Positions 1,111-22,247 of a DNA stretch of 32,000 bases are shown one piece after another. Positions within the stretch are counted from its first letter, which is position 1. Each line of letters starts with the position of its first letter. The position numbers were made by a program, and so were the translations under genes. The notes beneath the pieces are model-generated. The model was not told the DNA's origin. It ran no database searches and saw only the letters and a program-made list of their open reading frames with translations. Origin of the DNA: an uncultured archaeon. Its GTDB lineage: Archaea > Iainarchaeota > Iainarchaeia > Iainarchaeales > Iainarchaeaceae. The stretch is taken from positions 35,837 through 67,836 of the forward strand of contig CAZNZM010000003.1 in NCBI GenBank assembly GCA_964577555.1. Direction: 5' to 3'.

Positions 1111-1306
1111 TGATTTTTTTTTAATATAAATTTCATTTATTTTTTTTATTAAGATTTTGTTTTTAATTTTGGAATTGTTTTTTTTGTTATTTTTTTTGTA
1201 TTCTTTTTTTGTGAGCCATTTTTTTTATTTTCTTTTTTTTCGTTTTTTTTTTAATTTTAATACTTTGTTTTTTTTGTTTGTTTTGGTTTTTTAATACTTT
1301 CCTAAA
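1111..1306 (+). repeat. G/T-rich intergenic array A (T-run array with GTGAGCC core at 1211-1217)
   Basis: Starts right after the stop of the + gene 340..1110. Long T6-T10 runs are separated by short islands. The core GTGAGCCAT is flanked by T7/T8 runs, as in the other arrays. Confidence 0.6.
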
Positions 1307-2527
1307 TTGTTTTTTTTTGTGGTTGGCAAGAAGATTGTTCCTGCGGTTAGGGCTTTGGGCATAAAGCATGCGACTCGTGATGTTGTTCCGATTGCGCAGG
1401 AAGTTGAAAGGTCTGGTAAAAAGGTTTTGTATTTGAATATTGGGGACCCAATGGTTTTTGATTATCGTACTCCTGAGCATTTGTGGCAGGCTATTTTTGA
1501 GAATAAGAAAAATGCTGAGGGTTATTCTGATTCTTTGGGTTATTTGGGTGCAAGAAAAGCTGTTGCTGATTATGCTAAGCGAATGGGTGTTGGTGGTGTT
1601 TCTTGGGATGATGTTATTACTTTTGTTGGTGGGAGCGAGGCCATAATTTTTTCTATGCAGGCTCTTTTTAATCGTGGCGAGAATTGTCTTGTTCCTGTGC
1701 CTGGTTATTCTATTTTTACTGGGGAACTTGCTTTTTTGGAGTGCGAAGCTAATGGTTATTATTTGGATGAGGAGAATGGTTGGCAACCTGATGTTGATAT
1801 GATTGAAAGGAATATAAATGAAAAGACCAGAGCTATTGTTGTTATTAATCCTAATAATCCTACTGGTTCTGTTTTTTCTCGCGGTACTTTGAAAAAGATT
1901 GTTGACATTGCTGGTTCTCATGATTTGGTTGTTTTTGCTGATGAAACTTATGATCAGTTGTTGTTTGATGATGAAACTTTTGTTCCAATGGCTTCGCTTT
2001 CTGATGATGTTCCAATGATTTGTTTTGGCAGTATTTCCAAGAATTATCTTGCGCCTGGTTTTAGGGGTGGTTGGATTTATCAGCATGGGCCTAAAGAGGT
2101 TTTGAGTGATTATTTTGATGCTATTAAGAGGTTTTCTAGGTTGAGGCTTTCGACTGTTGCGCCTGTGCAGTATGCTATTGAAGCGGCTTTGAATGGGCCT
2201 CAGAATCATTTGGGAAAGTTGAGGGATAAGCTTAGAAAAAGGCGTGATCTTGCTTTTAAGAGGTTGAATGAGGTTCGTGGTTTGAGTTGTGTCAAGCCTA
2301 AAGGTGCTTTTTATTCTTATCCTAGGATTGATTTTCCGATTGAGTCTGATAGGCAGTTTGTGGTTGATCTTGTGAAGCAGAAAGGTGTTTTGTGTGTTTA
2401 TGGTGAAGGTTTTGGGCAAAAGCCTGGGACGCATCATTTTAGGATTGTTTTTTTGCCGCCTGAGGATGTTCTTTCAGAAGCTTTTGATAAGATTGACGAG
2501 TTTATTCGTGAAAATTACAGGTTTTGA
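1307..2527 (+). CDS. PLP-dependent class I aminotransferase, alanine/aspartate aminotransferase-like
   Basis: 406-aa ORF. NIGDP, INPNNPTG, the SxSK-like GSISKNY (PLP lysine region) and the C-terminal HFRIVFLPP resemble archaeal alanine aminotransferases. The start is uncertain (TTG 1307 or GTG 1319). Confidence 0.9.
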   Translation: MFFFVVGKKIVPAVRALGIKHATRDVVPIAQEVERSGKKVLYLNIGDPMVFDYRTPEHLWQAIFENKKNAEGYSDSLGYLGARKAVADYAKRMGVGGVSWDDVITFVGGSEAIIFSMQALFNRGENCLVPVPGYSIFTGELAFLECEANGYYLDEENGWQPDVDMIERNINEKTRAIVVINPNNPTGSVFSRGTLKKIVDIAGSHDLVVFADETYDQLLFDDETFVPMASLSDDVPMICFGSISKNYLAPGFRGGWIYQHGPKEVLSDYFDAIKRFSRLRLSTVAPVQYAIEAALNGPQNHLGKLRDKLRKRRDLAFKRLNEVRGLSCVKPKGAFYSYPRIDFPIESDRQFVVDLVKQKGVLCVYGEGFGQKPGTHHFRIVFLPPEDVLSEAFDKIDEFIRENYRF

Positions 2528-4293
2528 TTTTTGTTTTTCATTATTTCTTTGAAAAGTGCTATTGCGGCTTTTTTTGGGCCTTCTAATTCCATTCCTTGCA
2601 ATCCTAATTGTGTTTTGATTTGTCCAACATAAATTCCTTCTTTGAACATTTGTTTGAAGTATTTTTCGGCTATGATTTCGTGTTCTTCTTTTAGTTGTAA
2701 TGGGCCGAATATGTTTGCATAGTATGTTGTTGAAATTCCTGTTTCTTGGGTTGTGCCTTTTGCCAGTCTTTTTCCTTCTTTAAAAACAGCCATTGCTTCT
2801 TCTGGTGTTTTGAATCTTTGCAAGTAGTTTTCGTCTTCTGGTTTTTCGTAGTTGTTTGCATAAAGAAAATAGTCTATGTTCCAACCGTGTTGTATTTCTT
2901 TGAGCGTGGTTACTGGTATTATTATTCTTGCGTTTGGTTCTCGGTTTGGTATCATTATTATCATTCTGTCTAGTTGTCCATAAACGTATCCTGTGTCAAG
3001 GTCGTCTATTCTTACAAAGGCTCCGATTTCTGTGCCGTATGCCTTGATTTTTCCGTCTTTTCCTATTTCAAGAGAACCCATGTCGTCAAATATTATTTTC
3101 ATTTCTCTTAGGTTTTCTCCGCTTAGCATTCTTAATGCTTCTAGTGATTCGCTTTTTCCTGCTCCTGAATCTCCGACTAATATTATGTTTGCTTTTTTGC
3201 CTGTTTTCATTGTTATTCTTACCATTGCTCCGTGGATTGGCATTCTTCCTCTTTTTATCCAAATCGAGTTGTGGAGGGTGAGCATCATTTTTTTTATGTA
3301 TCCAAAGTAGCCGAATTCTTTGTCTGCTGGAATTGCTCCAATCATTAAATTGTTTTTTTCGTCAATGTAGTAAATCGTTTTTTCTGGGTAATATTTTTCG
3401 AATGTTTTTAGTGGCAAGCCGTAGACATATATTGCGTCCGGTTTTTTTTTCAGGTCTTGGTCTGTGCAAAGTTCGAAAAGGTTTGCTGTTGAAAGAGCCA
3501 TTCCTGTATAGAAGTCGTGGAAGTATAAGTAAATAATTAGTTCTCCTACTTTTGCTGGGAAGCAAAGCCATTCTTGTTCGTTGAATTCTGTGTTTTCAAT
3601 TGGGTTTGATTTTACTATTTTGAATTCTCCTTTTCTTTTGTTTATGAGCGGGTCTATTATTACTGGTGGATTTAATAGTATTTGTCTTATCATCGGGATT
3701 TTTTTTAGTTCTGCATATTCGTTTGGGATTTTTGGTTCTATTTTTTTTGCTATTGCTCCGACTGTGCAACCTGCTGGGACTTGGCGGAAAATAATCGGGT
3801 GTTCTCCTGTTATATTTTCTTGCATGTCTCTATAGATTTTTCTGACTGTGTGGTTGAGTTTTTCAATTGTGTCGTTGAATGTTCTGTATGGTTTTTTGTC
3901 TATTTCTTTGTCTGGCGAGTTTTGGTCTTGTAGGCATATTAGGTAGCGTTCGTGGTTGCGCCAGTAATTATAAAGTTCTTCTACGAATCTGTCCAGCAAG
4001 TATGGTTCTTTAAAGAATGTTTCCAATTCTGGGTTGTTTTTTAATGCTGTTTTTATATCGTGTTTTGCTATGCATTTTAGTGCTTTGTGGAGTTGTTCTT
4101 CTTGTTCTTTTTCGGTTGTTTTTGGGAGGAGTTTCAAAAATTCGGATTTTTTTTCTCTTAATTTTTTTAATAGGTTTGAAAGCATTGTTTTGAATAGTTC
4201 GCTGTCAATTATTTTGTCAATGTTTCCCCATTCAAGGCTTGTGGTTTTTATTATTACTTGTTTTCCTTGGAATGAAACTTTTGTTGCCATCAA
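2515..4293 (-). CDS. Uncharacterised 592-aa protein with an HPr kinase/PEPCK-like P-loop kinase domain
   Basis: Long ORF with ordinary (not low-complexity) composition. IHGAMVRI...ANIILVGDSGAGKSESLEAL...IIFDD matches the HprK-type signature HG..V...G.SG.GKSE..L.L...DD. The N-terminal ~350 aa have no motif I recognise. Confidence 0.7.
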   Translation of the reverse strand: MMATKVSFQGKQVIIKTTSLEWGNIDKIIDSELFKTMLSNLLKKLREKKSEFLKLLPKTTEKEQEEQLHKALKCIAKHDIKTALKNNPELETFFKEPYLLDRFVEELYNYWRNHERYLICLQDQNSPDKEIDKKPYRTFNDTIEKLNHTVRKIYRDMQENITGEHPIIFRQVPAGCTVGAIAKKIEPKIPNEYAELKKIPMIRQILLNPPVIIDPLINKRKGEFKIVKSNPIENTEFNEQEWLCFPAKVGELIIYLYFHDFYTGMALSTANLFELCTDQDLKKKPDAIYVYGLPLKTFEKYYPEKTIYYIDEKNNLMIGAIPADKEFGYFGYIKKMMLTLHNSIWIKRGRMPIHGAMVRITMKTGKKANIILVGDSGAGKSESLEALRMLSGENLREMKIIFDDMGSLEIGKDGKIKAYGTEIGAFVRIDDLDTGYVYGQLDRMIIMIPNREPNARIIIPVTTLKEIQHGWNIDYFLYANNYEKPEDENYLQRFKTPEEAMAVFKEGKRLAKGTTQETGISTTYYANIFGPLQLKEEHEIIAEKYFKQMFKEGIYVGQIKTQLGLQGMELEGPKKAAIALFKEIMKNKNQNL

Positions 4294-4394
4294 AATGTTT
4301 TTTTTGCATTATGTTTTTAATTAGGTTCATTGCTCTTTTGTTTTTTTTCATATTTCCTTTTAAAACCTGATTATTTGGGTTTTTTTGGCATTTC

Positions 4395-4403
4395 TTTATA
4401 AAT
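4395..4403 (+). promoter_or_regulatory. Candidate archaeal TATA box for the DUF1931 gene
   Basis: TTTATAAAT lies about 65 nt upstream of ATG 4467, in the divergent intergenic region. Confidence 0.3.
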
Positions 4404-4424
4404 CTTTTTTCAGTGTTTAATTTG

Positions 4425-4443
4425 TTTCCTTTTGAAAAGGAAA
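4425..4443. promoter_or_regulatory. 19-bp perfect palindrome (candidate operator) in the leader of the DUF1931 gene
   Basis: TTTCCTTTT-G-AAAAGGAAA, 9-bp arms around one central base, between the TATA-like box and the SD GGAGGT at 4454-4459. Confidence 0.3.
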
Positions 4444-4466
4444 ATAAAACTATGGAGGTATTTTCA

Positions 4467-4643
4467 ATGACTGATCTTTTAGTTGTTGGTTCAAAGGTGA
4501 AGGAAGAGATAAAAAAGTATGACTGTAATACTGCTGGCGATGCGGTTGAGGCGCTCAGTAAAATGGTTGAGGATGTAATAAAAAAGGCCGCCGAAAGGGC
4601 AAAAGCCAACGGTAGGAAGACGGTCAGGGCAGAGGACTTTTAA
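4467..4643 (+). CDS. DUF1931-family histone-fold protein (58 aa)
   Basis: SD GGAGGT lies 7 nt upstream of ATG 4467, inside the longer track ORF 4413..4643. MTDLLVVGSKVKEEIKK...AVEALSKMVEDVIKKAAERAKANGRKTVRAEDF is the typical DUF1931 pattern. Confidence 0.75.
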   Translation: MTDLLVVGSKVKEEIKKYDCNTAGDAVEALSKMVEDVIKKAAERAKANGRKTVRAEDF

Positions 4644-4690
4644 TTTTTGTAATGTAAATGAAAAAGGATTTTGTTTTGTATTTTTTTTAT

Positions 4691-4717
4691 GGGGCTTTGG
4701 GTTTGCCCCGTTTTTTT
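4691..4717 (+). terminator. Hairpin plus T-run terminator after the DUF1931 gene
   Basis: GGGGC (4691-4695), loop TTTGGGTTT, GCCCC (4705-4709), then G and T7 (4711-4717). Confidence 0.55.
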
Positions 4718-5405
4718 AATTTTGTATTTTTATTTTGATTAGTTTTTTTGTGCTATGGCTTAGTATTTTGTGGCTTTTTTTTGTGATTAATATGTCGTCT
4801 TCTATTCTTATGCCGAATTTTTTTGGCAGGTAGATTCCTGGTTCTATTGTTATTATGTCTCCTGTTTTGAGGAATTGGTTTGGTTTTTTGGATAGTTTGG
4901 GGTTTGCATGTATTATTTTTGACAAACCGTGTCCTAGGCTGTGGTTGAAGTATTTTGCGTGTTTTCCAAGTATTTTTAGTGCGTGTTTGTAAATTTTGTT
5001 GCCGTCTGTTTTTGGCTTTAGCATTTTTATGCATTCTTGGTTTGCGCGAAGTACTTTTGAGTATATTTTTTTTTCTTTTTTTGATGGTTCGCCGAAGTAT
5101 ATTGTTCTTGTCATGTCTCCGCAGTATTTGTTTACTCTTGCGCCAAAGTCTATTACACAGAAGCCTTTTTTTAGTTTTGTTTTGTTTGGCTTGTGGTGCC
5201 AATCTACCGCGTTTTCTGCTGTTGCAACTATTGTTTGAAAAGCGTTTTTTGCTCTTGCTTTTTTTATTTCTTTGTCAATGAATTTGGCTATGTCTTTTTC
5301 TGTTTTGAATTCGTTTTTTTTGAGTTTTTTCAAGAGTTTTGCAAATATTTTGTCGTTTATTTTGCATGCTTTTGAAATGTTTTTTGTTTTTTGATTTTTT
5401 GTCAT
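4716..5405 (-). CDS. M24-family metallopeptidase (Xaa-Pro dipeptidase/aminopeptidase-like, catalytic domain only)
   Basis: Pita-bread metal-ligand pattern: VIDFGA, CGDMTRT, HSLGHG, TIEPG, IRIEDD. Confidence 0.8.
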   Translation of the reverse strand: MTKNQKTKNISKACKINDKIFAKLLKKLKKNEFKTEKDIAKFIDKEIKKARAKNAFQTIVATAENAVDWHHKPNKTKLKKGFCVIDFGARVNKYCGDMTRTIYFGEPSKKEKKIYSKVLRANQECIKMLKPKTDGNKIYKHALKILGKHAKYFNHSLGHGLSKIIHANPKLSKKPNQFLKTGDIITIEPGIYLPKKFGIRIEDDILITKKSHKILSHSTKKLIKIKIQN

Positions 5406-5463
5406 GCAATCATTAAGTTATTTTTGGCATGATTTTAATTATGTTTGTTTTTTTTGTTTGTAT

Positions 5464-6225
5464 ATGGTTGGGAAACGTTTGAGGAATAGGCCTTTAGCGA
5501 ATGACGATCCAAGGGTGCCTTTTCCATGGCGTCGTTTAGGTCGGTCAGAAAGAACTCGTAAGCCTAATAATTATGCGCGTGAAGTTTCAATTTTTGATGG
5601 TTATGTAACAGCACGTGATATTAGAGCTACTTGGGGTGTTTTTGAAACAGGAATTAATAATGCTAAACGCATTTTGCATTTTGATATTAAAAGACATGTT
5701 GCTGCTTTATTGTCTAAAGATAATGTTCGTGTGGTTAATGTTCTTGATTTGGGTTGTGGCAAGGGTGTTGCGTTGAATGATTTGAAAAGGCTTTTTGGTG
5801 ATAGGGTGAGGACTTTTGGGCAGGTTGCGGCTGTTACTTCTAATGAAAAATATGATGGTGTTGATAGGCTTTTGGTTGGTTCTTTGACTTTGCCTGAAAA
5901 ACCGCTTAAGCTTGTTGATAAAAGTAAAGTTGTGAATGTTAATTTAGATAAGTGCAGAGTTTTTAGGCCTAGGCCTATTATGGATTTGATTTATTCTACT
6001 TATGGCCCTGCTTATCATTCTTTTTTGAGGTTGACTATATTTGAAGAGGTTATTAAGTGGCTTAGGCCCGGCGGAATTGCTGTTATTCATTTTGGCACTC
6101 CTTATAATAGGCTTGAATTGAAGAATGAGCTTGCTGTTTTGATGAAACAATATGGTGTTAAGGAATGGTTTATTAAGAAGGGTGGGATTTTATATTTTGA
6201 AAAACCTTTTGTTAAAATTCCTTGA
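5464..6225 (+). CDS. Class I SAM-dependent methyltransferase-like protein with a basic N-terminus
   Basis: Motif I VLDLGCGKG and the later RPGGIAV motif. Start placed at ATG 5464, because the track start 5404 overlaps the divergent gene's start. Confidence 0.65.
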   Translation: MVGKRLRNRPLANDDPRVPFPWRRLGRSERTRKPNNYAREVSIFDGYVTARDIRATWGVFETGINNAKRILHFDIKRHVAALLSKDNVRVVNVLDLGCGKGVALNDLKRLFGDRVRTFGQVAAVTSNEKYDGVDRLLVGSLTLPEKPLKLVDKSKVVNVNLDKCRVFRPRPIMDLIYSTYGPAYHSFLRLTIFEEVIKWLRPGGIAVIHFGTPYNRLELKNELAVLMKQYGVKEWFIKKGGILYFEKPFVKIP

Positions 6226-6623
6226 TATTGTTGTAAGATTTTTTTTAGCTTAATTTGTTTTTTTTTGATTTTTAAGAATTTCAAGTTTGCTTTTTTGTTT
6301 TTTTTGTTAATTGTTTTTTTATTTGTTTTTTTTTGTTTGGTTTTTGCAAGCTGTTTTTTTATGGAATTTGTTTTTTTTTTAATTTTAAATTGTTTTGTCT
6401 TTTTTTTTGTGGTTTGGTTTTTTTTTCAAGCTGTTTTTTTTTTATGGAATTTTGTTTTTTTTTGGCGAGCCGATTTTTTTTTGTTAATTGTTTTTTTTTA
6501 TTTGTTTTTTTTTAATTTTTGTTGTTTTTTTTGGTGTTGGTGATTTTTTTTTTGTTATTTTTTTTTAATTTTTGTTGTTTTTTTTGTGGCTTGTTTTTTT
6601 TGTTTTTTTAAATTCTATTTTTT
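6226..6623 (+). repeat. G/T-rich intergenic array B (internal duplications; GCGAGCC core at 6465-6471)
   Basis: Fills the whole gap between convergent genes. Repeated modules are CAAGCTG-Tn-ATGGAATTTG (6347-6380 and 6427-6463) and TTGTTAATTG-Tn-ATTTG-Tn (6304-6334 and 6481-6513). GTGGCTTG at 6586-6593. Confidence 0.75.
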
Positions 6624-7136
6624 TTAGGGTGTTATTCTTGTGACTTCGTAGTAGTTTATTTCGTTTTCCGAGTCTACAACTGCGTTTAAAAGTTTTGTTT
6701 TTAGGTTTCCTGCCAATCTGACCATTCTGGATAGTTCTATGAAATTGTATTTGTCGTCTTGTGATGTTACGTTTATGCACCATTGTGAATGTGCTTCTCC
6801 TGGTTTTTTTCCTCTTGGATATACTCTGAAATCAAATCCGAATTTGAATCCTGTTTTTACTACAAATCCTCTGTTTCTTAGGTCTTTGAATACTTGGTAT
6901 TTTAGGTAAAAGTTTTTGATTTTTTTGTCCGCGTAATTCAAGTATTCTTCTTCATTCATTGTTTTTCCTGTTTTTCCGTTTGTTATGCTGAATTTTTCTT
7001 TTTCAAGCAGGTATAGTCCTTCAAACAAGTCTAATATTAGTTCTTGTTCTTTGTTTTCGCCGAAGCCTCTTTGTCTTAATGCGTCTGCCAGTCTTTTGTC
7101 TTTTGTGAGTATTTTGTCGTTTATGATTATTGCCAT
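6624..7136 (-). CDS. endA: tRNA-splicing endonuclease (short homotetramer-type EndA, 170 aa)
   Basis: The C-terminal catalytic-domain pattern KTGFKFGFDFRVYPRG...GEAHSQW and the overall size are typical of archaeal EndA. Confidence 0.85.
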   Translation of the reverse strand: MAIIINDKILTKDKRLADALRQRGFGENKEQELILDLFEGLYLLEKEKFSITNGKTGKTMNEEEYLNYADKKIKNFYLKYQVFKDLRNRGFVVKTGFKFGFDFRVYPRGKKPGEAHSQWCINVTSQDDKYNFIELSRMVRLAGNLKTKLLNAVVDSENEINYYEVTRITP

Positions 7137-7335
7137 AATAATTCTATTTTGGCAATTGGTTATTAATGATTGTTGTTTGTCATTTTGTTAAATTGGTGTT
7201 GTATGTGGTTTTGTTTTAAAAAATTTTGATTGTTTTTTTTGTTTTGTATTTGATTTTTAATTGGTTTGTTGTGAAACTTTTTTGGTTAAATATGTTTTTG
7301 AATTTAATATGTTTTAATATTTTGGGTGGTTTTTT

Positions 7336-8427
7336 TTGGAAAAGCCTTTGATTGATCCTTGGGGTTCTTTTGCAGTTAATGATTATACGCATGTTTTTCG
7401 TGAGTTTGGATTGACTCCTTTTTCTAGGGATTTTGCTGGGAATTTTGATTTTTTTCTTTTTGAGCGTGGCATTGTTGTTGCTCATAGGGATTTTGACAAG
7501 GTTTTGAAGAGGATTGAATCTAAGAAGCCTTTTATTAATATGACTGGCATTGCTTCTTCTGGGCCTTTTCATTTAGGGCATAAGGTGGATGTGGATTTGT
7601 TCAAGTTTTTCAAGTCGAAGGGTGGTAGGAATTATTTTGCTGTTTGTGACATTGATGCTTATGTGAGCAGGCCTGATGAGAAAATTCCTGATTTGAGGAC
7701 GGCTAAAAAGTTTGCTGTTCTTAATGTGGCTGATTTGCTTGCTTTGGGTTTGGAGAAGGAGGATATTTATGTTCAGTCAAGGCAAGGAAGCAGGTATTAT
7801 GAATTTGCTTTTGAGTTGAGTAAAAAGATAACTAAAAATACTTTTGAAGCTGTTTACGGGCATGTTGATTTGGGTAAGGTTTCTGCTAATTTGTTGCAGT
7901 ATTCTGATATTTTACATCCTCAATTGGTTGAGTTTGAGGGCCCGATGCCTTCTGTTACTGGCATTGGTTTGGATCAGGATCCGCATGCACGTTTGGTAAG
8001 GGATATTGTTAAGAGGTTGCCTTACAAAATGCAGGTTCCTTCTTTTATTTATTTTAAGCATCAGTCTGGTTTGCAGCCGGGACAAAAGATGTCTGCTTCA
8101 AAGCCTGAAACCGCTATTTTTTTGTCCGATTCGCCAAAGGATATTGAGAAAAAAATAAATAGGGCTTTTTCTGGTGGCCAGCCAACTGTTGAAGAGCATC
8201 GTGCAAAGGGTGGTAATATTGAAATTGACATGGTTTTTGAAATGTTGAAGTTTCATTATCCTGACACGAAAGAGCTTGAAAAGATTGGCATGGATTTTGC
8301 TTCGGGTAAAATGCTTGCATCTGAGTTGAAAAAATTTGCGGTTGATTTCTTTGTGCCTTTGCTTGTAGAGCACCAAAAAATGGCTAAGGGCAATATTGAA
8401 TTGGCTGAAAAATTGGTTTACGGGTGA
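7336..8427 (+). CDS. trpS: Tryptophanyl-tRNA synthetase (archaeal/eukaryotic type)
   Basis: Class I signatures HLGH and KMSAS. TTG start at 7336 with GGGTGG 6 nt upstream. Confidence 0.9.
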   Translation: MEKPLIDPWGSFAVNDYTHVFREFGLTPFSRDFAGNFDFFLFERGIVVAHRDFDKVLKRIESKKPFINMTGIASSGPFHLGHKVDVDLFKFFKSKGGRNYFAVCDIDAYVSRPDEKIPDLRTAKKFAVLNVADLLALGLEKEDIYVQSRQGSRYYEFAFELSKKITKNTFEAVYGHVDLGKVSANLLQYSDILHPQLVEFEGPMPSVTGIGLDQDPHARLVRDIVKRLPYKMQVPSFIYFKHQSGLQPGQKMSASKPETAIFLSDSPKDIEKKINRAFSGGQPTVEEHRAKGGNIEIDMVFEMLKFHYPDTKELEKIGMDFASGKMLASELKKFAVDFFVPLLVEHQKMAKGNIELAEKLVYG

Positions 8428-8434
8428 TTATTTT

Positions 8435-10573: not shown

Positions 10574-11100
10574 CAATCAGAACTTTATTTTTTTTATTTT
10601 TTTTAAGCTTTTTTTTAATTTGTTTTTTTTGTTGTTTGTTTTTGGCGGGCTGTTTTTTTTGTATTGGTTTTTGTTTTTATTTTGTCAGCAAATTTTTTGT
10701 TATTTTTTTGGATTCTTTTTTTGCGAGCCGAATTTTTTTTTGTTATTTATTTTTTTTGTCTTTGTTGGTTTGGTTTTTTTTGAGCCAATGTTGTTTTTTT
10801 AAATTTGCTTTTTTTTTGTTTTTTTGGTATTGCTAGCCATTTTTTTGTCATTGTTTTTTGTGAGCTATTTTTTGTTATTTTTTTTATTTAAATTGTTTTG
10901 TCTTTTTTTTGTGGCTTGTTTTTTTTGAATTATTTTTTTTGATTTTTGTTTTTTTTGCGAGCCATTTTTTTGTCAATTTTTTTGTAATTTTATTTTTTTC
11001 TTAATTCATTTTTTCTCTTTTTTTTCAAGACAAGTTTTTTTGTCTTTGGTGGTTAGAAAATTGACTTTTTTTTGTTTTTTTGGTTTTAATAAGTTGGTGT
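10574..11100 (+). repeat. G/T-rich intergenic array C, the largest (GCGAGCC at 10723-10729 and 10957-10963)
   Basis: Starts at the stop of 9947..10573. A sampled line (10621-10680) has T42 G14 A2 C2. Islands: GGCGGGCTG 10644, GCGAGCCGAA 10723, TGAGCCAATG 10781, GCTAGCC 10832, GTGAGCTA 10860, GTGGCTTG 10911, GCGAGCCA 10957. Confidence 0.8.
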
Positions 11101-11139
11101 TCAAAAAGGTTTTAATTTGAAAGGCAGGCAATTTTTATT

Positions 11140-12150: not shown

Positions 12151-12187
12151 AAAATTGGTGTTCGGGCAAAACGCCCGAACAATTTTT
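12150..12187. terminator. Bidirectional hairpin terminator between the convergent genes nadA and 12186..12584
   Basis: GTTCGGGC (12160-12167), loop AAAAC, GCCCGAAC (12173-12180). Flanked by AAAAATT upstream and AATTTTT downstream, so a T-run follows the stem on both strands. Confidence 0.6.
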
Positions 12188-12584
12188 AATATGTGTTCGC
12201 CATTGTTCTTTTTCCAAATCCATTTCCTTGTTTTCTGCACATGCCTGGTTGTTGCCAATTGTATTTTGGTTGGTTTAAACCAAGTTTTGCTTTGAGTTCA
12301 AGTGCTTTTTCCATATCTCCTTTTTCAATTGCTTTGTGGAGTTCTGAAAATGTTTGAAAGTTTTTTTCATTTATGATTTGGAATATTCTTCCGTTGGTTG
12401 GTAAATTATTTTCTTGCCTGATTTTTTTCCACTCAGCGTAATTTCCATCTTCTATTGCTTTTTCAATTTTTTCATGTAGTTCTGGATTGTAATTTATTAT
12501 TGGTTTTATTTGGTATGCTGCTGCAAAACCAGCTACAAATAGGCTTGTGGCTATTATTGTCATTATTATTGCGATTTTTTTCAT
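12186..12584 (-). CDS. Small secreted or membrane-anchored helical protein of unknown function
   Basis: SD AGGAGGT precedes the internal ATG at 12584, giving MKKIAIIMTIIATSLFVAGFAAA (signal/anchor). Two similar helical segments, EKIEKAIEDGNYAEWKKI and ELHKAIEKGDMEKALELK. Confidence 0.6.
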   Translation of the reverse strand: MKKIAIIMTIIATSLFVAGFAAAYQIKPIINYNPELHEKIEKAIEDGNYAEWKKIRQENNLPTNGRIFQIINEKNFQTFSELHKAIEKGDMEKALELKAKLGLNQPKYNWQQPGMCRKQGNGFGKRTMANTY

Positions 12585-12700
12585 TATAATACCTCCTTTG
12601 TTTGGTATTAGAGGTTTTAGATTTTGGTTTATAAATTGGTTTTCCGGATTTATACCCAAATCTAGCCTAAATTTATTATTTTTTTGTATTTTTTTTGTTT

Positions 12701-13117
12701 TCATTCTTTTAGGAGATATATTAGTATTATTGTGGCTATTAGCGTAAATATTGAAGGTATTATTGTGAAAGGACCTAGTCCAGCTCCTCTGAATCCAAAA
12801 ATTTGTGTTAATAATGGGTTGGCTGTTAAACTTTGTGCAAATAAAGCCGATGCCATTGCGATTAGCCCCAAACTAAAATTAGATTTTAATTCCGAATAAA
12901 TTGTTGCATAATTATATATTAAATATATTAAAAGGAAAGAGTTTATTGTTGAGATAATTGTTTTAAAAAAATTTAATTCTTCGTTGATCATCATGCTTTT
13001 TCTTTGTCCTGGCGTGTAATAATAGTTTATCATTGAAACCATTAGAATTGTTGCAATTATTACAAATGCTATGACTGTTAAAGTTATTGTCATGGGGTTT
13101 TTAGTCTTGTTTTTCAT
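12701..13117 (-). CDS. Four-TM membrane protein of unknown function
   Basis: Hydrophobic segments TITLTVIAFVIIATILMV, IISTINSFLLIYLIY, LGLIAMASALFAQSL and FTIIPSIFTLIATIILIYL. The start is probably ATG 13117 (AGAGGG upstream), overlapping the stop of the upstream HTH gene. Confidence 0.6.
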   Translation of the reverse strand: MKNKTKNPMTITLTVIAFVIIATILMVSMINYYYTPGQRKSMMINEELNFFKTIISTINSFLLIYLIYNYATIYSELKSNFSLGLIAMASALFAQSLTANPLLTQIFGFRGAGLGPFTIIPSIFTLIATIILIYLLKE

Positions 13118-13418
13118 GTTTTTTTCCCTCTTTATCATTTTGTTCGGTAATCATTTTTTTAAGTAATTCGGCGTTTTCTTTTAGTTTTTCCGAATAAAAA
13201 TAGATTTGTCCGTATTTATTTCCTATTTTTGTGATTAAACCGTTTTTTTCCATTAATTCTATGTGGTGTTGGGCTGTCTTGTAATTCATGCCTGTTCTTT
13301 TTGCTATTTCATTGAGGTTGGCTGGTTTTTTTTCTATTTCTTTTAAAATTGAAATTCTGCTTTTTCCTCCTTTTGAACCAGCAATCAGCCAATAAATTGT
13401 TTGTTGAAAGTAATCCAT
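13101..13418 (-). CDS. Winged helix-turn-helix transcriptional regulator (ArsR-like)
   Basis: WLIAGSKGGKSRISILKEIEKKPANLNEIAKRTGMNYKTAQHHIELMEKNGLI is a typical wHTH segment. It is first in a three-gene same-strand cassette. Confidence 0.75.
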   Translation of the reverse strand: MDYFQQTIYWLIAGSKGGKSRISILKEIEKKPANLNEIAKRTGMNYKTAQHHIELMEKNGLITKIGNKYGQIYFYSEKLKENAELLKKMITEQNDKEGKKHEKQD

Positions 13419-15345: not shown

Positions 15346-15479
15346 TGTTAAACTAATTTTTGTAATGTTTAAAATTTATATGCTTAAAAATTTTATTGAT
15401 TTTATGAAATTATTGTGGATTATTTTGCTTTGCTATATGTTTAAATAGTTAGAGTAAGAGATTTTTAAAGGATGAAATT

Positions 15480-15950: not shown

Positions 15951-16368
15951 TTAAGACAACTTTGTTTTTTTTGAGCTGTTTTTTTGTTATTTTTTTGAAT
16001 TCTTTTTTTTGTGGGACGTTTTGTTGCGCCAATTTTTTATTATTTTTATTTTATTTTTTTAAAGTAATTTTTTTTTGTCATGTTTTTTTTTGAATTATTT
16101 TTCTGATTTTTGGTTTTTTGTTTGAAATTTTGTTTTTTTGGCGAGCCAAATTTTTTGATTTTTTTTGTTTTTTTTGTTTGATGTTTTTTTTGTTTTTCGA
16201 GCCGATTTTTTGTCTTGTTAGTCAAGTTTTGTTTTTTTTTGGTTTCTCGTTGTTTTTTTATTAGTCTATTTTTTTGGCTAACTAATTTTTTTGCCAAGTT
16301 TTTTTTGCAAGCCAGTTTTTTTAGACTATTTTTATTTTTTTTTATTTTTGATTTTGTTTTTTGTTTAA
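15951..16368 (+). repeat. G/T-rich intergenic array E (GCGAGCC at 16141-16147, CGAGCC at 16198-16203, GCAAGCC at 16307-16313)
   Basis: Fills the gap between convergent genes 15480..15950 and enolase. Shares the TGAATTATT...GATTTTTG...GCGAGCCA module with array C. Confidence 0.75.
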
Positions 16369-17640: not shown

Positions 17641-17834
17641 TTTTAAACCAGATTAAATTGTGCAATTCACCTATTTATTGTTTTGTATTTTGTTGGCTAT
17701 GCGGATTAGATTGTTTGGTTTATTGGCTTTTTTTTAGTATTGTAAATTATTGTAAAACATGGTTTTTATTTTAAAATCAATGTCTATTTTTTTTATGCAG
17801 AACATTTATTAATGAAAGAGAATTTTATTTTATT

Positions 17835-18665: not shown

Positions 18666-18795
18666 ATGGTTTGTTTTTGCAAAGTAATGTTTTTTTTTCA
18701 TGCCTAGCCATTTTTTTCTGTTTTTTTATAGAGTGTTTTTTTTAGAATTTTTTTTGAGTAGTTTTTTTCAAGTTTGTTTTTTTTTAATTATTTTT
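18666..18795 (+). repeat. G/T-rich intergenic array D (CCTAGCC core at 18703-18709)
   Basis: Fills the gap between convergent genes. TGCCTAGCCATTTTTTT resembles TGCTAGCCATTTTTTT at 10831. Confidence 0.6.
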
Positions 18796-20505: not shown

Positions 20506-20663
20506 TAGAGCCCCCCAACAAATTTCAAAAAAACAGACTAATGTAATGTTGATTGGGGTATATAATGATATTTGTCACAATTTGTTATTGGATTGCAAGT
20601 CGTTGGTGTAAATAGAAATATTTTTTTTGACAATTGTCTTTGTTTTGCTTTTCTTTAAAAACT

Positions 20664-20678
20664 CTTATTAAAATATTA
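20664..20678 (+). promoter_or_regulatory. Candidate TATA box for tRNA-Pro
   Basis: CTTATTAAAATATTA is centred about 26 nt upstream of the tRNA 5' end at 20697. Confidence 0.35.
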
Positions 20679-20696
20679 CAAGAAAATATGTGTGAG

Positions 20697-20806
20697 GGGG
20701 CTGTAGTCTAGCCTGGTTAGGATTCAGCGTTCGGGTGGCGCTTAAAGTAATTTGTTTGTTTTGCCAGAATTACGCTGCGGCGAGAGTTCAAATCTCTCCA
20801 GCCCCA
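20697..20806 (+). tRNA. tRNA-Pro (anticodon CGG) with a 36-nt intron at the canonical 37/38 position (20736-20771)
   Basis: Hand-folded. Acceptor GGGGCTG/CAGCCCC with A73. D stem GTCT/GGAT. Anticodon stem CAGCG (20725-29) / CGCTG (20773-77). Loop TT-CGG-G[intron]A. T arm GAGAG-TTCAAAT-CTCTC. No encoded CCA. An intron helix GGC/GCC and 3-nt bulges at both junctions give a relaxed BHB. Confidence 0.85.
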
Positions 20807-20835
20807 TTTGTTTTTTTTGGTTGCCCAAAAGTGCT

Positions 20836-20928
20836 TTAATCGCACTTGTGGGCTTCTTCTTCGTCAGCAAAATTGCTGGATTTTTGGAATACTTCGTGGC
20901 ATTCCTTGCAATATTTGAATTCTATCAT
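20836..20928 (-). CDS. Candidate 30-aa zinc-finger-like small protein
   Basis: Below the ORF-track size cutoff. SD GAGGTGA (20941-20935) lies 6 nt upstream of ATG 20928. Translation MIEFKYCKECHEVFQKSSNFADEEEAHKCD has CxxC plus HxC. Confidence 0.35.
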   Translation of the reverse strand: MIEFKYCKECHEVFQKSSNFADEEEAHKCD

Positions 20929-21030
20929 TTTATTTCACCTCTTTTATTTTTGAAACCACTTTTGTGGGAGAATACGAATTTTTGTTTTTACTTTTTTTCT
21001 TTTTCTCAATGGAATAATATGCAATTAGTT

Positions 21031-21040
21031 ATTTATAAAT
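21031..21040 (+). promoter_or_regulatory. Candidate TATA box for the CPBP protease gene (leaderless or short-leader transcript)
   Basis: ATTTATAAAT is centred about 26 nt upstream of ATG 21062. There is no SD before that ATG. Confidence 0.35.
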
Positions 21041-21061
21041 CTATTCTTTTAAGTATAAATC

Positions 21062-21640
21062 ATGGTTATTGAAGATAATCCTTATGTCACTGTTTTTTTT
21101 TGTTCATTTCTTTTGATTTTTATTGAAGTTGTTTTATATTCTTTGAAACTCAAAAAATTGTTTTATAAATTCATTAATCAAAATGTTTCGGCTATGTTTT
21201 TTAATTGGCATTTTCCTTCTGATAAGCCTTTCAGTCTTTTTGTAATTCCGTTGTTAGTGATTTTGGTGTTTAACTTTTTTTTGGTTAAAAACCAGTATTT
21301 GGTTGAAACTTCCGTTGCAGTATTTGCAATTGCCGTAAAAGTTTTGGTTGAAGAAATTGTTTTCAGGGGCTTTGTTTTCGGCGCTTTATTAAAATTTTTT
21401 AATGTAAGTGAAAATATTGTTTCCATTAAATTAATATTGCCTGTTTTTCTTCAGGCTATTTTTTTTGTTTTAATGCATTTTGGGACAATAAATTTTTTTG
21501 GTGTTTTTTTGAGCGGTTTGGTTTTTGGAATTGTTTTTTTCTTTTCTGGAAAAAATATCTTGCCGTCAGCTATGTTGCATTTGGCGTTGAATTTGTCAAT
21601 ATTCATGGCTGGCTTGACAGAAAATTTGTTAGGAATGTAA
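21062..21640 (+). CDS. CPBP-family intramembrane glutamic endopeptidase (CAAX protease / Abi family)
   Basis: All three family motifs are present in a polytopic protein: EEIVFRG (EExxxR), FVLMH (FxxxH) and HLALN (HxxxN). Confidence 0.8.
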   Translation: MVIEDNPYVTVFFCSFLLIFIEVVLYSLKLKKLFYKFINQNVSAMFFNWHFPSDKPFSLFVIPLLVILVFNFFLVKNQYLVETSVAVFAIAVKVLVEEIVFRGFVFGALLKFFNVSENIVSIKLILPVFLQAIFFVLMHFGTINFFGVFLSGLVFGIVFFFSGKNILPSAMLHLALNLSIFMAGLTENLLGM

Positions 21641-21807
21641 TATTATTATCTGAAAAAATGCCGCATTGGCAAGTTTTTTTTATTTTTGTTGTTTTTGCAT
21701 AATATTAAATATCTTCCATAGCATATCTAATTTGCCGGTAAAGGCTTATTTGAATTATTGCCTGCCAATTTTTTTGGCGAAATTAAGGGCGGTTGGAGGG
21801 GTAAGAT

Positions 21808-21927
21808 ATGGTGGCAAAAAAGTCAAGTAAATCGCAAAAGAAAGTTGCAAGTGAAGATTCTTGCGGCTGTGGTTGCGGGGAAAGTTCTCATAAAGAGTCT
21901 TCGGATAAAGGTTGTGGCTGTTGTTGA
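21808..21927 (+). CDS. Candidate 39-aa cysteine-rich peptide (metallothionein-like)
   Basis: Below the ORF-track size cutoff. SD GGAGGGG (21795-21801) lies 6 nt upstream of ATG 21808. Translation MVAKKSSKSQKKVASEDSCGCGCGESSHKESSDKGCGCC has 7 Cys. It forms a local GC-rich island in an AT-rich genome. Confidence 0.5.
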   Translation: MVAKKSSKSQKKVASEDSCGCGCGESSHKESSDKGCGCC

Positions 21928-21939
21928 AGGTGCTTTTTT

Positions 21940-22119
21940 ATGATGGGTTTGCACTCTTCGAAAATCAAAGCCAAGGCTTCAAACTATGCTGCTCCTGAAT
22001 TAAGATGCATGAATTGTGGCAGGATAATTGTGGAGCCCATGCCTGGGCTTTATGGCAGGAGATTCTGCAGCATGGATTGCAAAGATGAATATATGAGTAG
22101 TGGCCCAGCCCAGCCATGA
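21940..22119 (+). CDS. Candidate 59-aa TRASH/FCS-type zinc-ribbon protein
   Basis: GAAGGTG lies 7 nt upstream of ATG 21940, which is 12 nt after the stop of the previous ORF. Translation MMGLHSSKIKAKASNYAAPELRCMNCGRIIVEPMPGLYGRRFCSMDCKDEYMSSGPAQP has CxxC-x16-FCSxxCxxxY. A hairpin plus T9 follows. Confidence 0.6.
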   Translation: MMGLHSSKIKAKASNYAAPELRCMNCGRIIVEPMPGLYGRRFCSMDCKDEYMSSGPAQP

Positions 22120-22135
22120 ATTGGGCTTTTTTTTT
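22107..22135 (+). terminator. Hairpin plus T9 terminator after the TRASH-like ORF
   Basis: AGCCCA (22107-22112), 9-nt loop, TGGGCT (22122-22127), continuing into T9 (22127-22135). Confidence 0.5.
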
Positions 22136-22247
22136 ATTTTTTTCAAACATGTTTTTTTTGCGAGCCATTTTTTTTGTGATTTTTTTTGTCAAACTATTTT
22201 TATTTTTTTTGTTATTTGTTTTGGCTGGACATTTTTTTGTCATTTTT
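22120..22247 (+). repeat. G/T-rich intergenic array F (GCGAGCC at 22160-22166)
   Basis: T8-GCGAGCCA-T8-GTG, then TTTGTCAAAC, then GGCTGGACA-T7-GTCA. Same architecture and orientation as arrays A-E. Confidence 0.65.

What the first reader, a model, noticed from the sequence alone, without database searches (positions are those of the whole stretch)
1111..22247. Dispersed, strand-locked, almost pure G/T intergenic arrays carrying a conserved GCGAGCC core
Six intergenic tracts share one architecture: 1111-1306, 6226-6623, 10574-11100, 15951-16368, 18666-18795 and 22120-22247. Each consists of long T6-T10 runs with scattered G. A sampled line (10621-10680) has T42 G14 A2 C2. Every 30-80 nt the runs are interrupted by a short island containing C and A. 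The exact heptamer GCGAGCC occurs at 6465, 10723, 10957, 16141 and 22160, always in the same orientation and always flanked by T-runs. Near-variants are GTGAGCC 1211, GAGCC 10782, GCTAGCC 10832, CGAGCC 16198, GCAAGCC 16307 and CCTAGCC 18703. The local consensus is roughly T(6-9)-G-GCGAGCC-R-T(6-9)-GTC. On a non-exhaustive manual scan I did not find the heptamer inside any CDS. With this base composition a specific G/C-rich 7-mer is expected well under once per 32 kb. Every array begins directly at the stop codon of a + strand gene, and four of the six fill the gap between convergent genes. They have no terminal inverted repeats, no constant repeat-spacer period and no coding signal. C/A-containing cores surviving in a sea of G/T suggests the cores are under selection while the rest sits at mutational equilibrium. 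Possible roles, all speculative: stacked oligo-T termination arrays for + genes with a protein-binding core, U-rich transcripts, or a nucleoid- or replication-associated motif.
Basis: seen in the sequence. Interest (0 to 1): 0.75.

Follow-up and report, generated by a model that had tools for sequence, protein, structure and literature searches.

The report
Hypervariable oligo-T arrays with conserved core
In an uncultured DPANN archaeon with extreme strand-biased base composition, the spaces behind genes on the T-rich strand hold fast-changing arrays of T7-9 runs, and these carry a short one-orientation motif (GCGAGCC) that is kept between two species and whose function is unknown.

Summary
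All six tracts exist at the stated coordinates, and a seventh lies upstream on the same contig. GCGAGCC occurs 5 times in the window, always on the + strand and always inside the tracts. That is 6 copies in 2.3 kb of arrays, against about 0.02 expected from local composition.

"Almost pure G/T" is overstated: G+T is 77-85%. The G/T richness and the strand lock are not special to the arrays. Four-fold degenerate codon sites of genes on both strands have the same + strand composition as the arrays (T .60-.63, G .15-.18, A .15, C .07). The arrays therefore sit at the neutral composition of an extremely asymmetric genome, a Diapherotrites-type DPANN archaeon.

The arrays are more than drift:
- T-run lengths peak at 7-9 and none exceeds 10.
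- A and C are clustered in islands.
- Arrays occur only in gaps downstream of + genes.
- A sister species (enolase 87% identical, about one neutral change per site) has arrays at 3 of 4 orthologous sites. Their content cannot be aligned, but the enriched words are the same (CGAGCC, TTTTGTC).

Best reading: expansions of oligo-T terminator space by slippage and duplication, carrying a selected or self-propagating module of unknown function. Interest is moderate.

The parts
1111..1354 (+). Array 1. It lies in a +/+ gap between the glycosyltransferase stop (1110) and the aminotransferase start (1355). It contains the variant core GTGAGCC.
6226..6623 (+). Array 2. It lies in the convergent gap between the 273-aa gene (+) and tRNA-intron endonuclease (-). 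It has 22 T runs of at least 6 and internal duplications (6306-6334 ~ 6483-6513; 6347-6380 ~ 6427-6463; 6514-6533 = 6567-6586).
   Evidence: The relative L136 has an array at the orthologous site.
10574..11139 (+). Array 3. It lies in a +/+ gap between the 208-aa gene stop and the NadA start. The last ~45 nt (11095-11139) is the conserved NadA promoter/leader and is not array. The array is absent from the orthologous site of the relative, where the gap is 100 bp.
15951..16368 (+). Array 4. It lies in the convergent gap between the 156-aa gene (+) and enolase (-). The orthologous array in relative L131 has four GCGAGCC copies.
18666..18795 (+). Array 5. It lies in the convergent gap between the 276-aa gene (+) and CTP synthase (-). 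The orthologous array in relative L087 is 511 bp.
22120..22247 (+). Array 6. It lies in the convergent gap between the 59-aa zinc-ribbon-like ORF (+, 21940-22119) and the class-V aminotransferase (-). The JGI 92-aa call on the - strand here looks spurious.
6465..6471 (+). Exact core GCGAGCC, within the module T9-G-GCGAGCC-GA-T9-GTT (6455-6485).
10723..10729 (+). Exact core GCGAGCC, within the module T7-GCGAGCC-GAA-T9-GTT (10716-10744).
10957..10963 (+). Exact core GCGAGCC, within the module T8-GCGAGCC-A-T7-GTC (10949-10974).
16141..16147 (+). Exact core GCGAGCC, in the context T7-G-GCGAGCC-AAA-T6-G.
22160..22166 (+). Exact core GCGAGCC, within the module T8-GCGAGCC-A-T8-GTG (22152-22178). A 34-nt stretch here is 94% identical to a module in non-orthologous arrays of the relative.
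1211..1217 (+). Variant core GTGAGCC.
10780..10786 (+). Variant core TTGAGCC.
10832..10838 (+). Variant core GCTAGCC, followed by A-T7-GTCA.
16197..16203 (+). Variant core TCGAGCC, followed by GA-T6-GTC.
16307..16313 (+). Variant core GCAAGCC. The word GCAAGCCAG is also in the upstream seventh array.
18703..18709 (+). Variant core CCTAGCC.
6381..6426 (+). Segment shared between arrays. It is homologous to 10886-10926 (…AAATTGTTTTGTC-T8/9-GTGGYTTG…).
10886..10926 (+). Segment shared between arrays: the partner of 6381-6426.
10968..10974 (+). One example of the second enriched word, TTTTGTC. The 11 array copies start at 6393, 10680, 10754, 10843, 10896, 10968, 11038, 16073, 16208, 22184 and 22235.
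   Evidence: 5.8 per kb in arrays against 0.73 per kb elsewhere. The reverse complement is absent from arrays.

Best explanation
The window comes from a Diapherotrites-type DPANN archaeon whose chromosome carries an extreme, replication-type strand asymmetry. The explanation has three layers, and my confidence falls from the first to the third.

(1) Shown. The G/T richness and the strand lock of the arrays are simply the neutral base composition of this strand. The arrays have the same composition as four-fold degenerate sites of genes in either orientation.

(2) Shown for the anatomy, inferred for the mechanism. The arrays occupy terminator space downstream of genes coded on the T-rich strand. 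They are made of T7-9 tracts separated by 1-12-nt words. T-tracts of this kind are the known archaeal termination signal: oligo-T / U-tracts, read by RNA polymerase and bound by aCPSF1. I infer that the arrays grew from such terminators by homopolymer slippage, by tandem duplication of 30-225-bp segments, and by copying between arrays. This would make them hypervariable, and dispensable at any single site.

(3) Inferred. One module, T7-9-(G)GCGAGCC-R-T6-9-G(TC), is kept in both species while everything around it turns over. It is therefore maintained either by selection or by biased copying. My best guess is that it is a cis-acting module of the 3'-end / terminator region of T-strand genes, acting as a pause or protein-binding site between two U-tracts. 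This module would be re-seeded among arrays by recombination. All arrays are T-rich on the same strand, so homology-driven copying automatically keeps the core in one orientation.
For: Layer 1.
- Four-fold sites read on the + strand are T .631 G .148 A .145 C .076 in + genes and T .599 G .183 A .154 C .063 in - genes. The arrays are T .635 G .144 A .156 C .066.
- Codon and amino-acid usage split by gene strand.
- The asymmetry runs over at least 47.8 kb.
- A complete Diapherotrites genome shows a bacterial-type cumulative GC skew with one origin (PMC5905446).

Layer 2.
- T-run lengths are bimodal, with 27, 37 and 19 runs of length 7, 8 and 9 against 13, 11 and 7 expected. No run is 11 or longer, against about 14 expected.
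- T runs recur at a spacing of about 14-17 nt.
- All 7 arrays start at + gene stops, and none lies in the 23 gaps that do not follow a + gene (p = 0.016).
- Nearly every + gene has a T run of at least 7 within 50 nt of its stop.
- In other archaea, two or more U-tracts within 18-36 nt give the best termination and aCPSF1 binding (PMC8716108). Four consecutive oligo-dT terminators are known behind a Pyrococcus histone gene (PMC2253867).
- Duplications: repeated word pairs inside arrays are seen 2 times against 0.1 expected, p about 0.002-0.006. Duplicated copies differ only in T-run length. A 225-bp segment is 95% identical between two different arrays of the relative. Strains that are 99.6% identical in enolase differ by a ~75-bp unit.
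- Array 3 is absent at the orthologous site of the relative, which has a 100-bp gap with a small hairpin plus T7.

Layer 3.
- GCGAGCC is seen 6 times against 0.02 expected in the window contig's arrays.
- In the relative's arrays L087 and L131 it is seen 5 times against 0.00 expected, and TTTTGTC 14 times against 0.6. L136 adds one more copy.
- Counting both lineages, all 12 array copies are on the T-rich strand. Composition alone would favour the reverse complement, which has T where the motif has A.
- Neutral divergence is about one change per site: four-fold identity is .64 against .42 by chance.
- A 34-nt module is 94% identical between non-orthologous arrays of the two species.
Against: - No transcript data, so termination at these tracts is inferred from other archaea.
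- 10 of 16 - strand genes have no T run of at least 5 within 80 nt of their stop. T-tracts are therefore not a universal requirement in this genome, and their abundance behind + genes could be a by-product of the mutation bias.
- A terminator needs 2-4 tracts, not 10-30.
- The array-free orthologous site shows that the neighbouring genes work without an array.
- The peak in T-run length could be a slippage equilibrium rather than the result of selection.
- + strand specificity is not proven. Convergent gaps are downstream of both genes, and the -/- gaps available for comparison are few and short.
- If the genome holds a few hundred copies, a few could survive by chance and re-amplify. Conservation of the core then points to selection but does not prove it.
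- The function of the core is a guess. I found no structure, no known RNA family and no match to any known binding site.
Confidence: 0.55

Rival explanations
1. Purpose-built stacked terminators or insulators. The whole array is selected as a host function. It would give fail-safe termination of T-strand genes, shield convergent neighbours, support polymerase recycling, or act as stiff poly(dA:dT) tracts that exclude histones.
For: - The arrays sit directly after + stop codons and never in divergent gaps.
- The T7-9 length is favoured.
- More U-tracts give better termination and aCPSF1 binding (PMC8716108).
- Consecutive terminators support polymerase recycling (PMC2253867).
- Arrays persist at 3 of 4 orthologous sites over about one neutral change per site in a small genome. 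This argues against plain junk.
- A histone-fold gene is present at 4413-4643.
Against: - Array 3 is missing at the orthologous site, where a 100-bp gap suffices.
- Sizes vary 4-fold between species, and by whole units between near-identical strains.
- - strand genes mostly have no T-tract.
- Other convergent pairs are separated by 7-35 bp, one of them (12159-12181) by a single hairpin terminator.
- This reading gives no reason for a conserved GC-rich core.
Confidence: 0.2
2. Plain low-complexity drift. The arrays are functionless spacer DNA at mutational equilibrium. The recurring words are only the consensus of a young, locally amplified satellite.
For: - Composition is identical to four-fold sites.
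- Content cannot be aligned between species.
- Arrays are gained and lost, and vary in size.
- Intra-array duplications are present.
- RNA folding is not better than shuffles, with z from -0.8 to -1.6.
Against: - The same heptamer and the same second word are the top enriched k-mers in both species, despite about one neutral change per site.
- The window copies of GCGAGCC have different flanking words, so they are not one recent duplication.
- A and C are strongly clustered.
- Arrays are restricted to gaps after + genes.
- Arrays persist at orthologous sites in a genome type that normally deletes unused DNA. This last point rests on general knowledge, not on a test here.
Confidence: 0.15
3. 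A polar chromosomal signal tied to the direction of replication. The oriented core would be read by a DNA-tracking or priming machine. It would be the counterpart of bacterial KOPS or Chi, or a preferred start site for Okazaki primers on the T-rich lagging-strand template.
For: - All 12 array copies have one orientation relative to the skew.
- That orientation is opposite to what composition favours.
- TTTTGTC is equally polar: its reverse complement is absent from arrays.
Against: - KOPS and Chi are spread through coding DNA. Here the core is absent from genes beyond chance, with 1 copy in 45 kb against about 0.3 expected (my calculation from the non-array composition; count).
- Copies are clustered, not evenly spaced.
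- The related word CAAGCC occurs in both orientations.
- Homology-driven copying between arrays of the same orientation explains the polarity without any reader protein.
- No contig with a skew switch was available to test a flip.
Confidence: 0.05
4. RNA-level hairpin terminators or a small RNA. The C/A islands would be the 3' arms of stems whose 5' arms have become G/U-only, pairing through G-U wobble (for example GGCUUGU ... GCGAGCC).
For: - Some good examples exist: 10912-10918 pairs with 10957-10963 at -11.3 kcal/mol. GGUUUGG-U9-CAAGCUG at 6410-6433 is another.
- GGCT lies 8-70 nt upstream of 10 of 26 AGCC cores, against 3 of 26 downstream.
Against: - Against other array segments as controls, core-to-upstream pairing is not significant: mean z is -0.35 for 20 cores.
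- Whole-array z-scores are -0.8 to -1.6.
- The terminator scan finds none in the arrays.
- There are no Rfam or tRNA hits.
- Loops would be 10-40 nt of U.
Confidence: 0.03

Closest known systems
Archaeal oligo-T / U-tract transcription terminators (intrinsic and aCPSF1/FttA-assisted), including genes with several consecutive terminators
   Same: T-tracts lie on the coding strand directly after the stop codon. Two or more tracts fall within 18-36 nt. Several consecutive terminators behind one gene are documented (PMC8716108, PMC2253867).
   Different: There are 10-30 tracts over 130-570 bp instead of 1-4. Tract length is 7-9 rather than 4-7. The arrays hold conserved non-T words. They are present on one strand only, while most genes on the other strand lack any tract. 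Arrays are gained and lost between close relatives.
Replication-associated strand compositional asymmetry with strand-specific codon usage (Borrelia, Chlamydia, Lawsonia; cumulative GC skew in the Diapherotrite 'Ca. Forterrea')
   Same: G exceeds C and T exceeds A on one strand whatever the gene orientation. Codon and amino-acid usage split by gene strand. Non-coding DNA follows the same bias (PMC2671203, PMC2089121, PMC5905446).
   Different: The magnitude is much larger. At four-fold sites AT skew is about -0.6 and GC skew +0.3 to +0.5. From my own knowledge, this is nearer to animal mitochondria than to typical bacteria. Composition alone does not explain the T-run length peak, the islands or the conserved words.
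Bacterial dispersed intergenic repeats (REP/BIME, BOX, ERIC, Correia and other MITE-like elements)
   Same: Both are short multi-copy non-coding modules. They cluster in mosaics, mostly behind genes or between convergent genes, vary between strains, and break short-read assemblies.
   Different: There is no palindrome or hairpin, no terminal inverted repeats and no defined ends or target duplications. The core has strictly one orientation. No transposase or RAYT gene was seen in the 47.8 kb I examined.
Polar oligomers co-oriented with replication (KOPS, Chi and other architecture-imparting sequences)
   Same: A short G/C-containing word lies with complete strand bias on the G/T-rich strand.
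   Different: It is confined to intergenic arrays and absent from coding DNA beyond chance. Copies are clustered. No archaeal reader protein is known.
Minisatellites / VNTRs and homopolymer microsatellites with a focal length
   Same: Growth is by slippage and unit duplication. Copy number varies between near-identical strains. Run length is peaked with an upper limit.
   Different: There is no constant unit: TRF finds only 2-6 copies at 62-80% match with changing periods. The same words recur at many unlinked loci and in a second species.

Membership tests
Archaeal oligo-T terminators | A run of at least 4-5 T on the coding strand just downstream of the stop codon | tested here: met
   All array-bearing + genes, and most other + genes, have a T run of at least 7 within 50 nt of the stop.
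Archaeal oligo-T terminators | Two or more U-tracts within about 18-36 nt, the unit bound by aCPSF1 | tested here: met
   T runs of at least 6 recur with spacings mostly of 14-17 nt. The criterion is taken from PMC8716108.
Archaeal oligo-T terminators | Transcript 3' ends map to the tracts | not testable with these tools
   No RNA data are available for this uncultured organism.
Archaeal oligo-T terminators | Used genome-wide by genes of both orientations | tested here: not met
   10 of 16 - strand genes have no T run of at least 5 within 80 nt of their stop.
Replication-type strand asymmetry | The same strand is G- and T-rich at neutral sites whatever the gene orientation | tested here: met
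   Four-fold sites read on the + strand have T .63 in + genes and .60 in - genes, and C .076 and .063. Third codon positions are mirror images.
Replication-type strand asymmetry | The sign of the skew switches at the origin and terminus | not testable with these tools
   Only 47.8 kb of one contig could be read, and it shows no switch. The 147-kb NCBI contig was not retrievable.
REP/BIME or MITE-type mobile repeats | Dispersed multi-copy intergenic elements | tested here: met
   There are 7 arrays in 47.8 kb, and the same words recur in three contigs of a sister species.
REP/BIME or MITE-type mobile repeats | An internal palindrome/hairpin or terminal inverted repeats | tested here: not met
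   There are no inverted repeats within or flanking the arrays. Folding is no better than shuffles.
REP/BIME or MITE-type mobile repeats | A cognate transposase (RAYT or an IS family) in the genome | tested here: inconclusive
   No transposase domain turned up among the 37 window ORFs I scanned against Pfam, or in the precomputed Pfam labels of the genes called on the contig. The rest of the genome was not seen.
KOPS/Chi-type polar oligomers | Strong strand bias co-oriented with the compositional skew | tested here: met
   In arrays of both lineages, 12 GCGAGCC copies are on the T-rich strand and none on the other.
KOPS/Chi-type polar oligomers | Frequent and spread along the chromosome, including inside genes | tested here: not met
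   Outside the arrays there is 1 copy in 45 kb, which is chance level. All other copies are clustered in arrays.
Minisatellite / tandem repeat | Head-to-tail copies of one unit of constant length | tested here: not met
   TRF gives only overlapping low-score rows with periods of 9-70, 62-80% matches and 2-6 copies.
Minisatellite / tandem repeat | Unit gain or loss between close strains | tested here: met
   L087 and L131 are 99.6% identical in enolase but differ by a ~75-bp unit in the array.
CRISPR array | An identical repeat at a constant period with unique spacers | tested here: not met
   There is no constant repeat or period.

The most novel reading that the evidence does not exclude
The module T7-9-(G)GCGAGCC-R-T6-9-GTC could be a selected, strictly polar cis-element. 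It would be read by a protein or by the transcription or replication machinery. On this reading it defines a new, non-palindromic class of archaeal intergenic repeat. The class would have arisen in a lineage whose chromosome underwent a recent, extreme shift to strand-asymmetric mutation, and it would spread between arrays by recombination rather than by a transposase.
Probability: 0.25. Interest if true: 0.7.

Novelty: new variant of a known kind. Interest (0 to 1): 0.5.

Why it matters
Two things would matter if confirmed.

First, the genome is a natural experiment in strand-asymmetric mutation. Relatives with 70-82% identical housekeeping proteins have 45-50% GC and no skew. This lineage has 33% GC, and its neutral sites are 60% T on one strand. 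That points to a recent change in replication or repair, and it could show what sets the size of the skew in archaea.

Second, the arrays separate what mutation does to unconstrained DNA from what is held against it. A 7-nt C/G-rich word survives in a strand that destroys C. It is thus a ready-made candidate for an unknown archaeal cis-element, for which termination, 3'-end processing or DNA tracking are the candidate roles.

There is also a practical point. These arrays break short-read assemblies of such genomes, and they attract spurious gene calls.

Tried and rejected
- The genome-contig scan with NadA found no close relative.
- The motif scan TTTTTTKGCGAGCCRNNTTTTT gave 38 single, unrelated hits in metagenome contigs, with no arrays and normal composition.
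- The same scan gave 2 unrelated hits in viral contigs. The lineage is absent from both collections.
- Rfam gave no family at gathering score. ARAGORN found no tRNA or tmRNA.
- Tandem Repeats Finder gave only weak rows with shifting periods. A CRISPR-like or fixed-unit reading is rejected.
- The inverted-repeat search found nothing in or around the arrays. TIR or palindromic elements are rejected.
- The hairpin-terminator scan found none in the arrays. It found only the bidirectional one at 12159-12181.
- RNA folding of arrays 2, 3 and 4 gave z of -1.26, -0.78 and -1.61.
- The wobble-hairpin idea looked suggestive against mononucleotide shuffles (mean z -0.69). It vanished against real array segments as controls (mean z -0.35).
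- Coding: the ORFs inside the arrays are Phe/Leu- or Lys/Asn-rich, are not conserved in the relative, and have no Pfam hit.
- Promoter reading of the cores: upstream regions of the genes carry mixed A/T TATA-like boxes (TTTAAATA type) and show no resemblance to the core.
- No helical phasing: spacings between T runs show no long-range period.
- The 100% TrpRS hit could not be used to reach the 147-kb NCBI contig, because only the Logan contig is indexed.
- The test 'does the orientation flip where the skew flips' could not be run. No available contig contains a switch, and separate contigs have no absolute orientation.

Full report
**Source and organism.** The window is part of JGI metagenome contig Ga0394875_0000553 (68,106 bp; window position = contig position - 29,981). 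The same sequence occurs at 100% identity in a second JGI metagenome and in a Logan assembly. The genes are archaeal: tRNA-intron endonuclease, NucS, an A/V-type ATPase operon and a histone-fold protein. The nearest named homologues of enolase and TrpRS are from Candidatus Diapherotrites MAGs. By joining flanking loci I could read 47,768 bp of the contig.

**Checking the observation.**
- GCGAGCC occurs five times in the window, all on the + strand and all in the tracts.
- A seventh array lies upstream (window -7867..-7464). It again follows a + gene stop and carries GCGAGCC, TTGAGCC, GCAAGCC and ACTAGCC.
- Against the arrays' own dinucleotide content, CGAGCC is seen 7 times against 0.03 expected and GCGAGCC 6 times against 0.02.
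- A second word, TTTTGTC, is seen 13 times against 1.4 expected. In the six window arrays its density is 5.8 per kb against 0.73 per kb elsewhere in the window, and its reverse complement is absent from them.
- A and C are clustered in islands while G is scattered almost at random.
- 'Almost pure G/T' is an overstatement, because G+T is 77-85%.

**What explains the composition and the strand lock.** The whole window is T 42.7%, A 23.5%, G 20.1% and C 13.7%, with 197 T runs of at least 7 against 17 such A runs.
- Third codon positions are mirror images in + and - genes. Synonymous codon choice and even amino-acid usage split by gene strand.
- At four-fold degenerate sites, read on the + strand, + genes give T .631, G .148, A .145, C .076. 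- genes give T .599, G .183, A .154, C .063.
- The arrays give T .635, G .144, A .156, C .066.

The arrays therefore have exactly the neutral composition of this strand. This is the known kind of replication-associated asymmetry that shapes codon usage in Borrelia, Chlamydia or Lawsonia. A bacterial-type cumulative GC skew has been shown for a complete Diapherotrites genome (PMC5905446). Here the magnitude is extreme. It is also recent: relatives with 82% identical TrpRS (L133, GC 50%) or 70-74% identical enolase (L088, L132) show no skew, compact gaps and no arrays.

**What composition does not explain.**
- T-run lengths in the arrays are bimodal. There are 27, 37 and 19 runs of length 7, 8 and 9 against 13, 11 and 7 expected. 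No run is 11 or longer, against about 14 expected.
- Outside the arrays the distribution is close to geometric, with the same ceiling.
- The arrays read as T7-9 tracts separated by words of 1-12 nt, at a spacing of about 14-17 nt and without long-range phasing.
- Arrays occupy 7 of 31 gaps that follow a + gene and 0 of 23 other gaps (Fisher p = 0.016). Among gaps of at least 100 bp the split is 7 of 10 against 0 of 10.
- + strand specificity as such is not proven. Convergent gaps are downstream of both genes, and -/- gaps are few and short.
- Nearly all + genes have a T run of at least 7 within 50 nt of the stop, whereas 10 of 16 - genes have no T run of at least 5 within 80 nt.

**Comparison with a sister species.** Contigs L087, L131 and L136 come from two other metagenomes. 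They carry enolase at 87% and NadB at 89% identity, with the same skew.
- Four-fold sites of enolase are 64% identical against 42% expected by composition. About 62% of neutral sites have therefore been redrawn. One neutral GCGAGCC copy would then survive with a probability of about 0.4% (my calculation from those numbers).
- Arrays are present at the orthologous sites of arrays 2, 4 and 5.
- Array 3 is absent from its orthologous site. The 208-aa gene and NadA are 100 bp apart, with a small hairpin plus T7. Only the last ~45 nt before the NadA start is conserved with the window.
- Array 5 is 130 bp in the window and 511 bp in the relative.
- The arrays cannot be aligned beyond their T content.
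- Yet in L087 and L131 the top enriched words are the same: CGAGCC 6 against 0.03, GCGAGCC 5 against 0.00, TTTTGTC 14 against 0.6. T runs again peak at 6-8 with a maximum of 9. L136 adds one more GCGAGCC in the array-2 orthologue.
- A 34-nt module (T8-GCGAGCCA-T8-GTGA…) is 94% identical between window array 6 and non-orthologous arrays of the relative.
- Counting both lineages, all 12 array copies of GCGAGCC lie on the T-rich strand. Composition alone would favour the reverse complement.

**How the arrays change.**
- Inside array 2, three segments are duplicated, and the copies differ only in T-run length. Repeated word pairs exceed token shuffles, 2 against 0.1, p about 0.002-0.006.
- Window arrays 2 and 3 share a ~45-nt segment.
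- In the relative, 225 bp are 95% identical between the orthologues of arrays 4 and 5.
- Two strains that are 99.6% identical in enolase differ by a ~75-bp unit.
- Short-read assemblies break inside the arrays.

The arrays thus evolve by slippage, segmental duplication and copying between arrays, much faster than by substitution.

**Interpretation.** I hold three layers with decreasing confidence.
1. Composition and strand lock are mutational. This is shown.
2. The arrays are expansions of oligo-T terminator space behind T-strand genes. T-tracts are the established archaeal termination signal. Two or more tracts within 18-36 nt give the strongest termination and aCPSF1 binding (PMC8716108). 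Consecutive terminators behind one gene are known (PMC2253867). The anatomy fits. The array-free orthologous site and the variable sizes show that no particular array is needed.
3. The core module is maintained by selection or by biased copying. Its function is unknown. My best guess is a pause or binding site between two U-tracts in the 3' region of T-strand genes, re-seeded among arrays by recombination. All arrays are T-rich on the same strand, so homology-driven copying keeps the core in one orientation without any polarity-reading protein.

**Rivals.** The rivals are:
- a selected fail-safe terminator, insulator or histone-excluding tract;
- plain drift with a young satellite consensus;
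- a KOPS/Chi-like or priming signal;
- wobble-paired RNA hairpins.

The hairpin idea was tested. Pairing of the cores to upstream sequence is not better than to other array segments (mean z -0.35). Whole-array folding z-scores are -0.8 to -1.6. There are no terminator-scan, Rfam or tRNA hits in the arrays. The related word CAAGCC occurs in both orientations (GCAAGCCAG, and GTGGCTTG as its reverse complement). GGCT lies upstream of 10 of 26 AGCC cores against 3 downstream. This hint is not significant.

**Limits.**
- There are no transcript data and no complete genome.
- The NCBI 147-kb contig could not be retrieved.
- The lineage is absent from the searchable metagenome and viral collections.
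What I could show is its contig-independent equivalent: the motif is always on the T-rich strand.

**Verdict.** The feature is real and statistically solid. Its most eye-catching properties (G/T richness and strand lock) are explained by an extreme but known kind of genome-wide mutational asymmetry. Its architecture is a new variant of known things: oligo-T terminators, slippage-driven repeats and dispersed intergenic repeats. The conserved polar core is unexplained.

Noticed in passing
whole window and flanks (window -9642..38125): The strand asymmetry is extreme. Four-fold sites read on the + strand are about 60-63% T and 6-8% C in genes of both orientations. Codon choice splits by gene strand (Lys AAA 56% in + genes, 97% in - genes). 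So does amino-acid usage (Val 8.5% against 3.7% of codons). Relatives with 82% identical TrpRS or 70-74% identical enolase have 45-50% GC and no skew, so the shift is recent.
   Followed up: partly
window 12159-12181; ~4684-4712; 22101-22133; L129 547-570: Short convergent gaps without arrays carry bacterial-style G+C-rich hairpins followed by T runs. The hairpin at 12159-12181 reads as a terminator on both strands. The array-free orthologue of array 3 (L136 3566-3665) also has a small hairpin plus T7.
   Followed up: partly
window 1187-1369, 10747-10851, 16046-16297, 21965-22243; L129 1826-1951; L136 7669-7896: JGI gene calls of 34-92 aa inside the arrays look spurious. Most are on the A-rich strand, and the one I translated (window 21965-22243) is Lys/Asn-rich and has no Pfam hit. 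At 21940-22119 an uncalled 59-aa + ORF with weak zinc-finger similarity looks real instead.
   Followed up: partly
window 5731-6094 and L129 9308-9671 (window -335..28): These two stretches are paralogous, 87% identical over 365 bp. One lies in the 273-aa gene in front of array 2 and the other in a 263-aa gene upstream of the window. Both have weak methyltransferase similarity. In the more distant relative L133 the M24 peptidase and the tRNA endonuclease are adjacent, with no such gene between them. The sister-species contig L136 ends inside the array on that side of the endonuclease, so its neighbour there is unknown.
   Followed up: no
window 12186-13138: The 172-aa and 145-aa (DUF8036) genes between NadA and the HTH gene are absent from the sister species. 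There NadA directly overlaps the HTH gene (L136 2182-3565).
   Followed up: no
window -5600..-1600 (L129 ~4000-8000): This stretch holds - strand genes (ferredoxin, peroxiredoxin, an AbiEii toxin) with a much weaker skew than other - genes. It also contains a 600-bp non-array gap. It may be a recently acquired island that has not yet taken on the host composition.
   Followed up: no
whole 47.8 kb: No T homopolymer exceeds 10 and no A homopolymer exceeds 8, although about 10-14 T runs of 10-11 or more are expected. In non-coding DNA outside the arrays, T8 is commoner than T7. This points to a length ceiling, or a focal length, for homopolymers in this organism.
   Followed up: partly
window 6378, 10823, 22199; both ends of L131; end of L136: Short-read assemblies from four datasets end inside the arrays. 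Genomes of this clade will be systematically fragmented at these sites.
   Followed up: yes
window 21758-21943: The region between the Rce1-like gene and the zinc-ribbon ORF holds two overlapping candidate small ORFs. One is the JGI 61-aa call. From reading the raw sequence I also see a Cys-rich frame (MVAKKSSKSQKKVASEDSCGCGCGESS…GCGCC). I did not check that frame with a tool, and I did not resolve which ORF is real.
   Followed up: no
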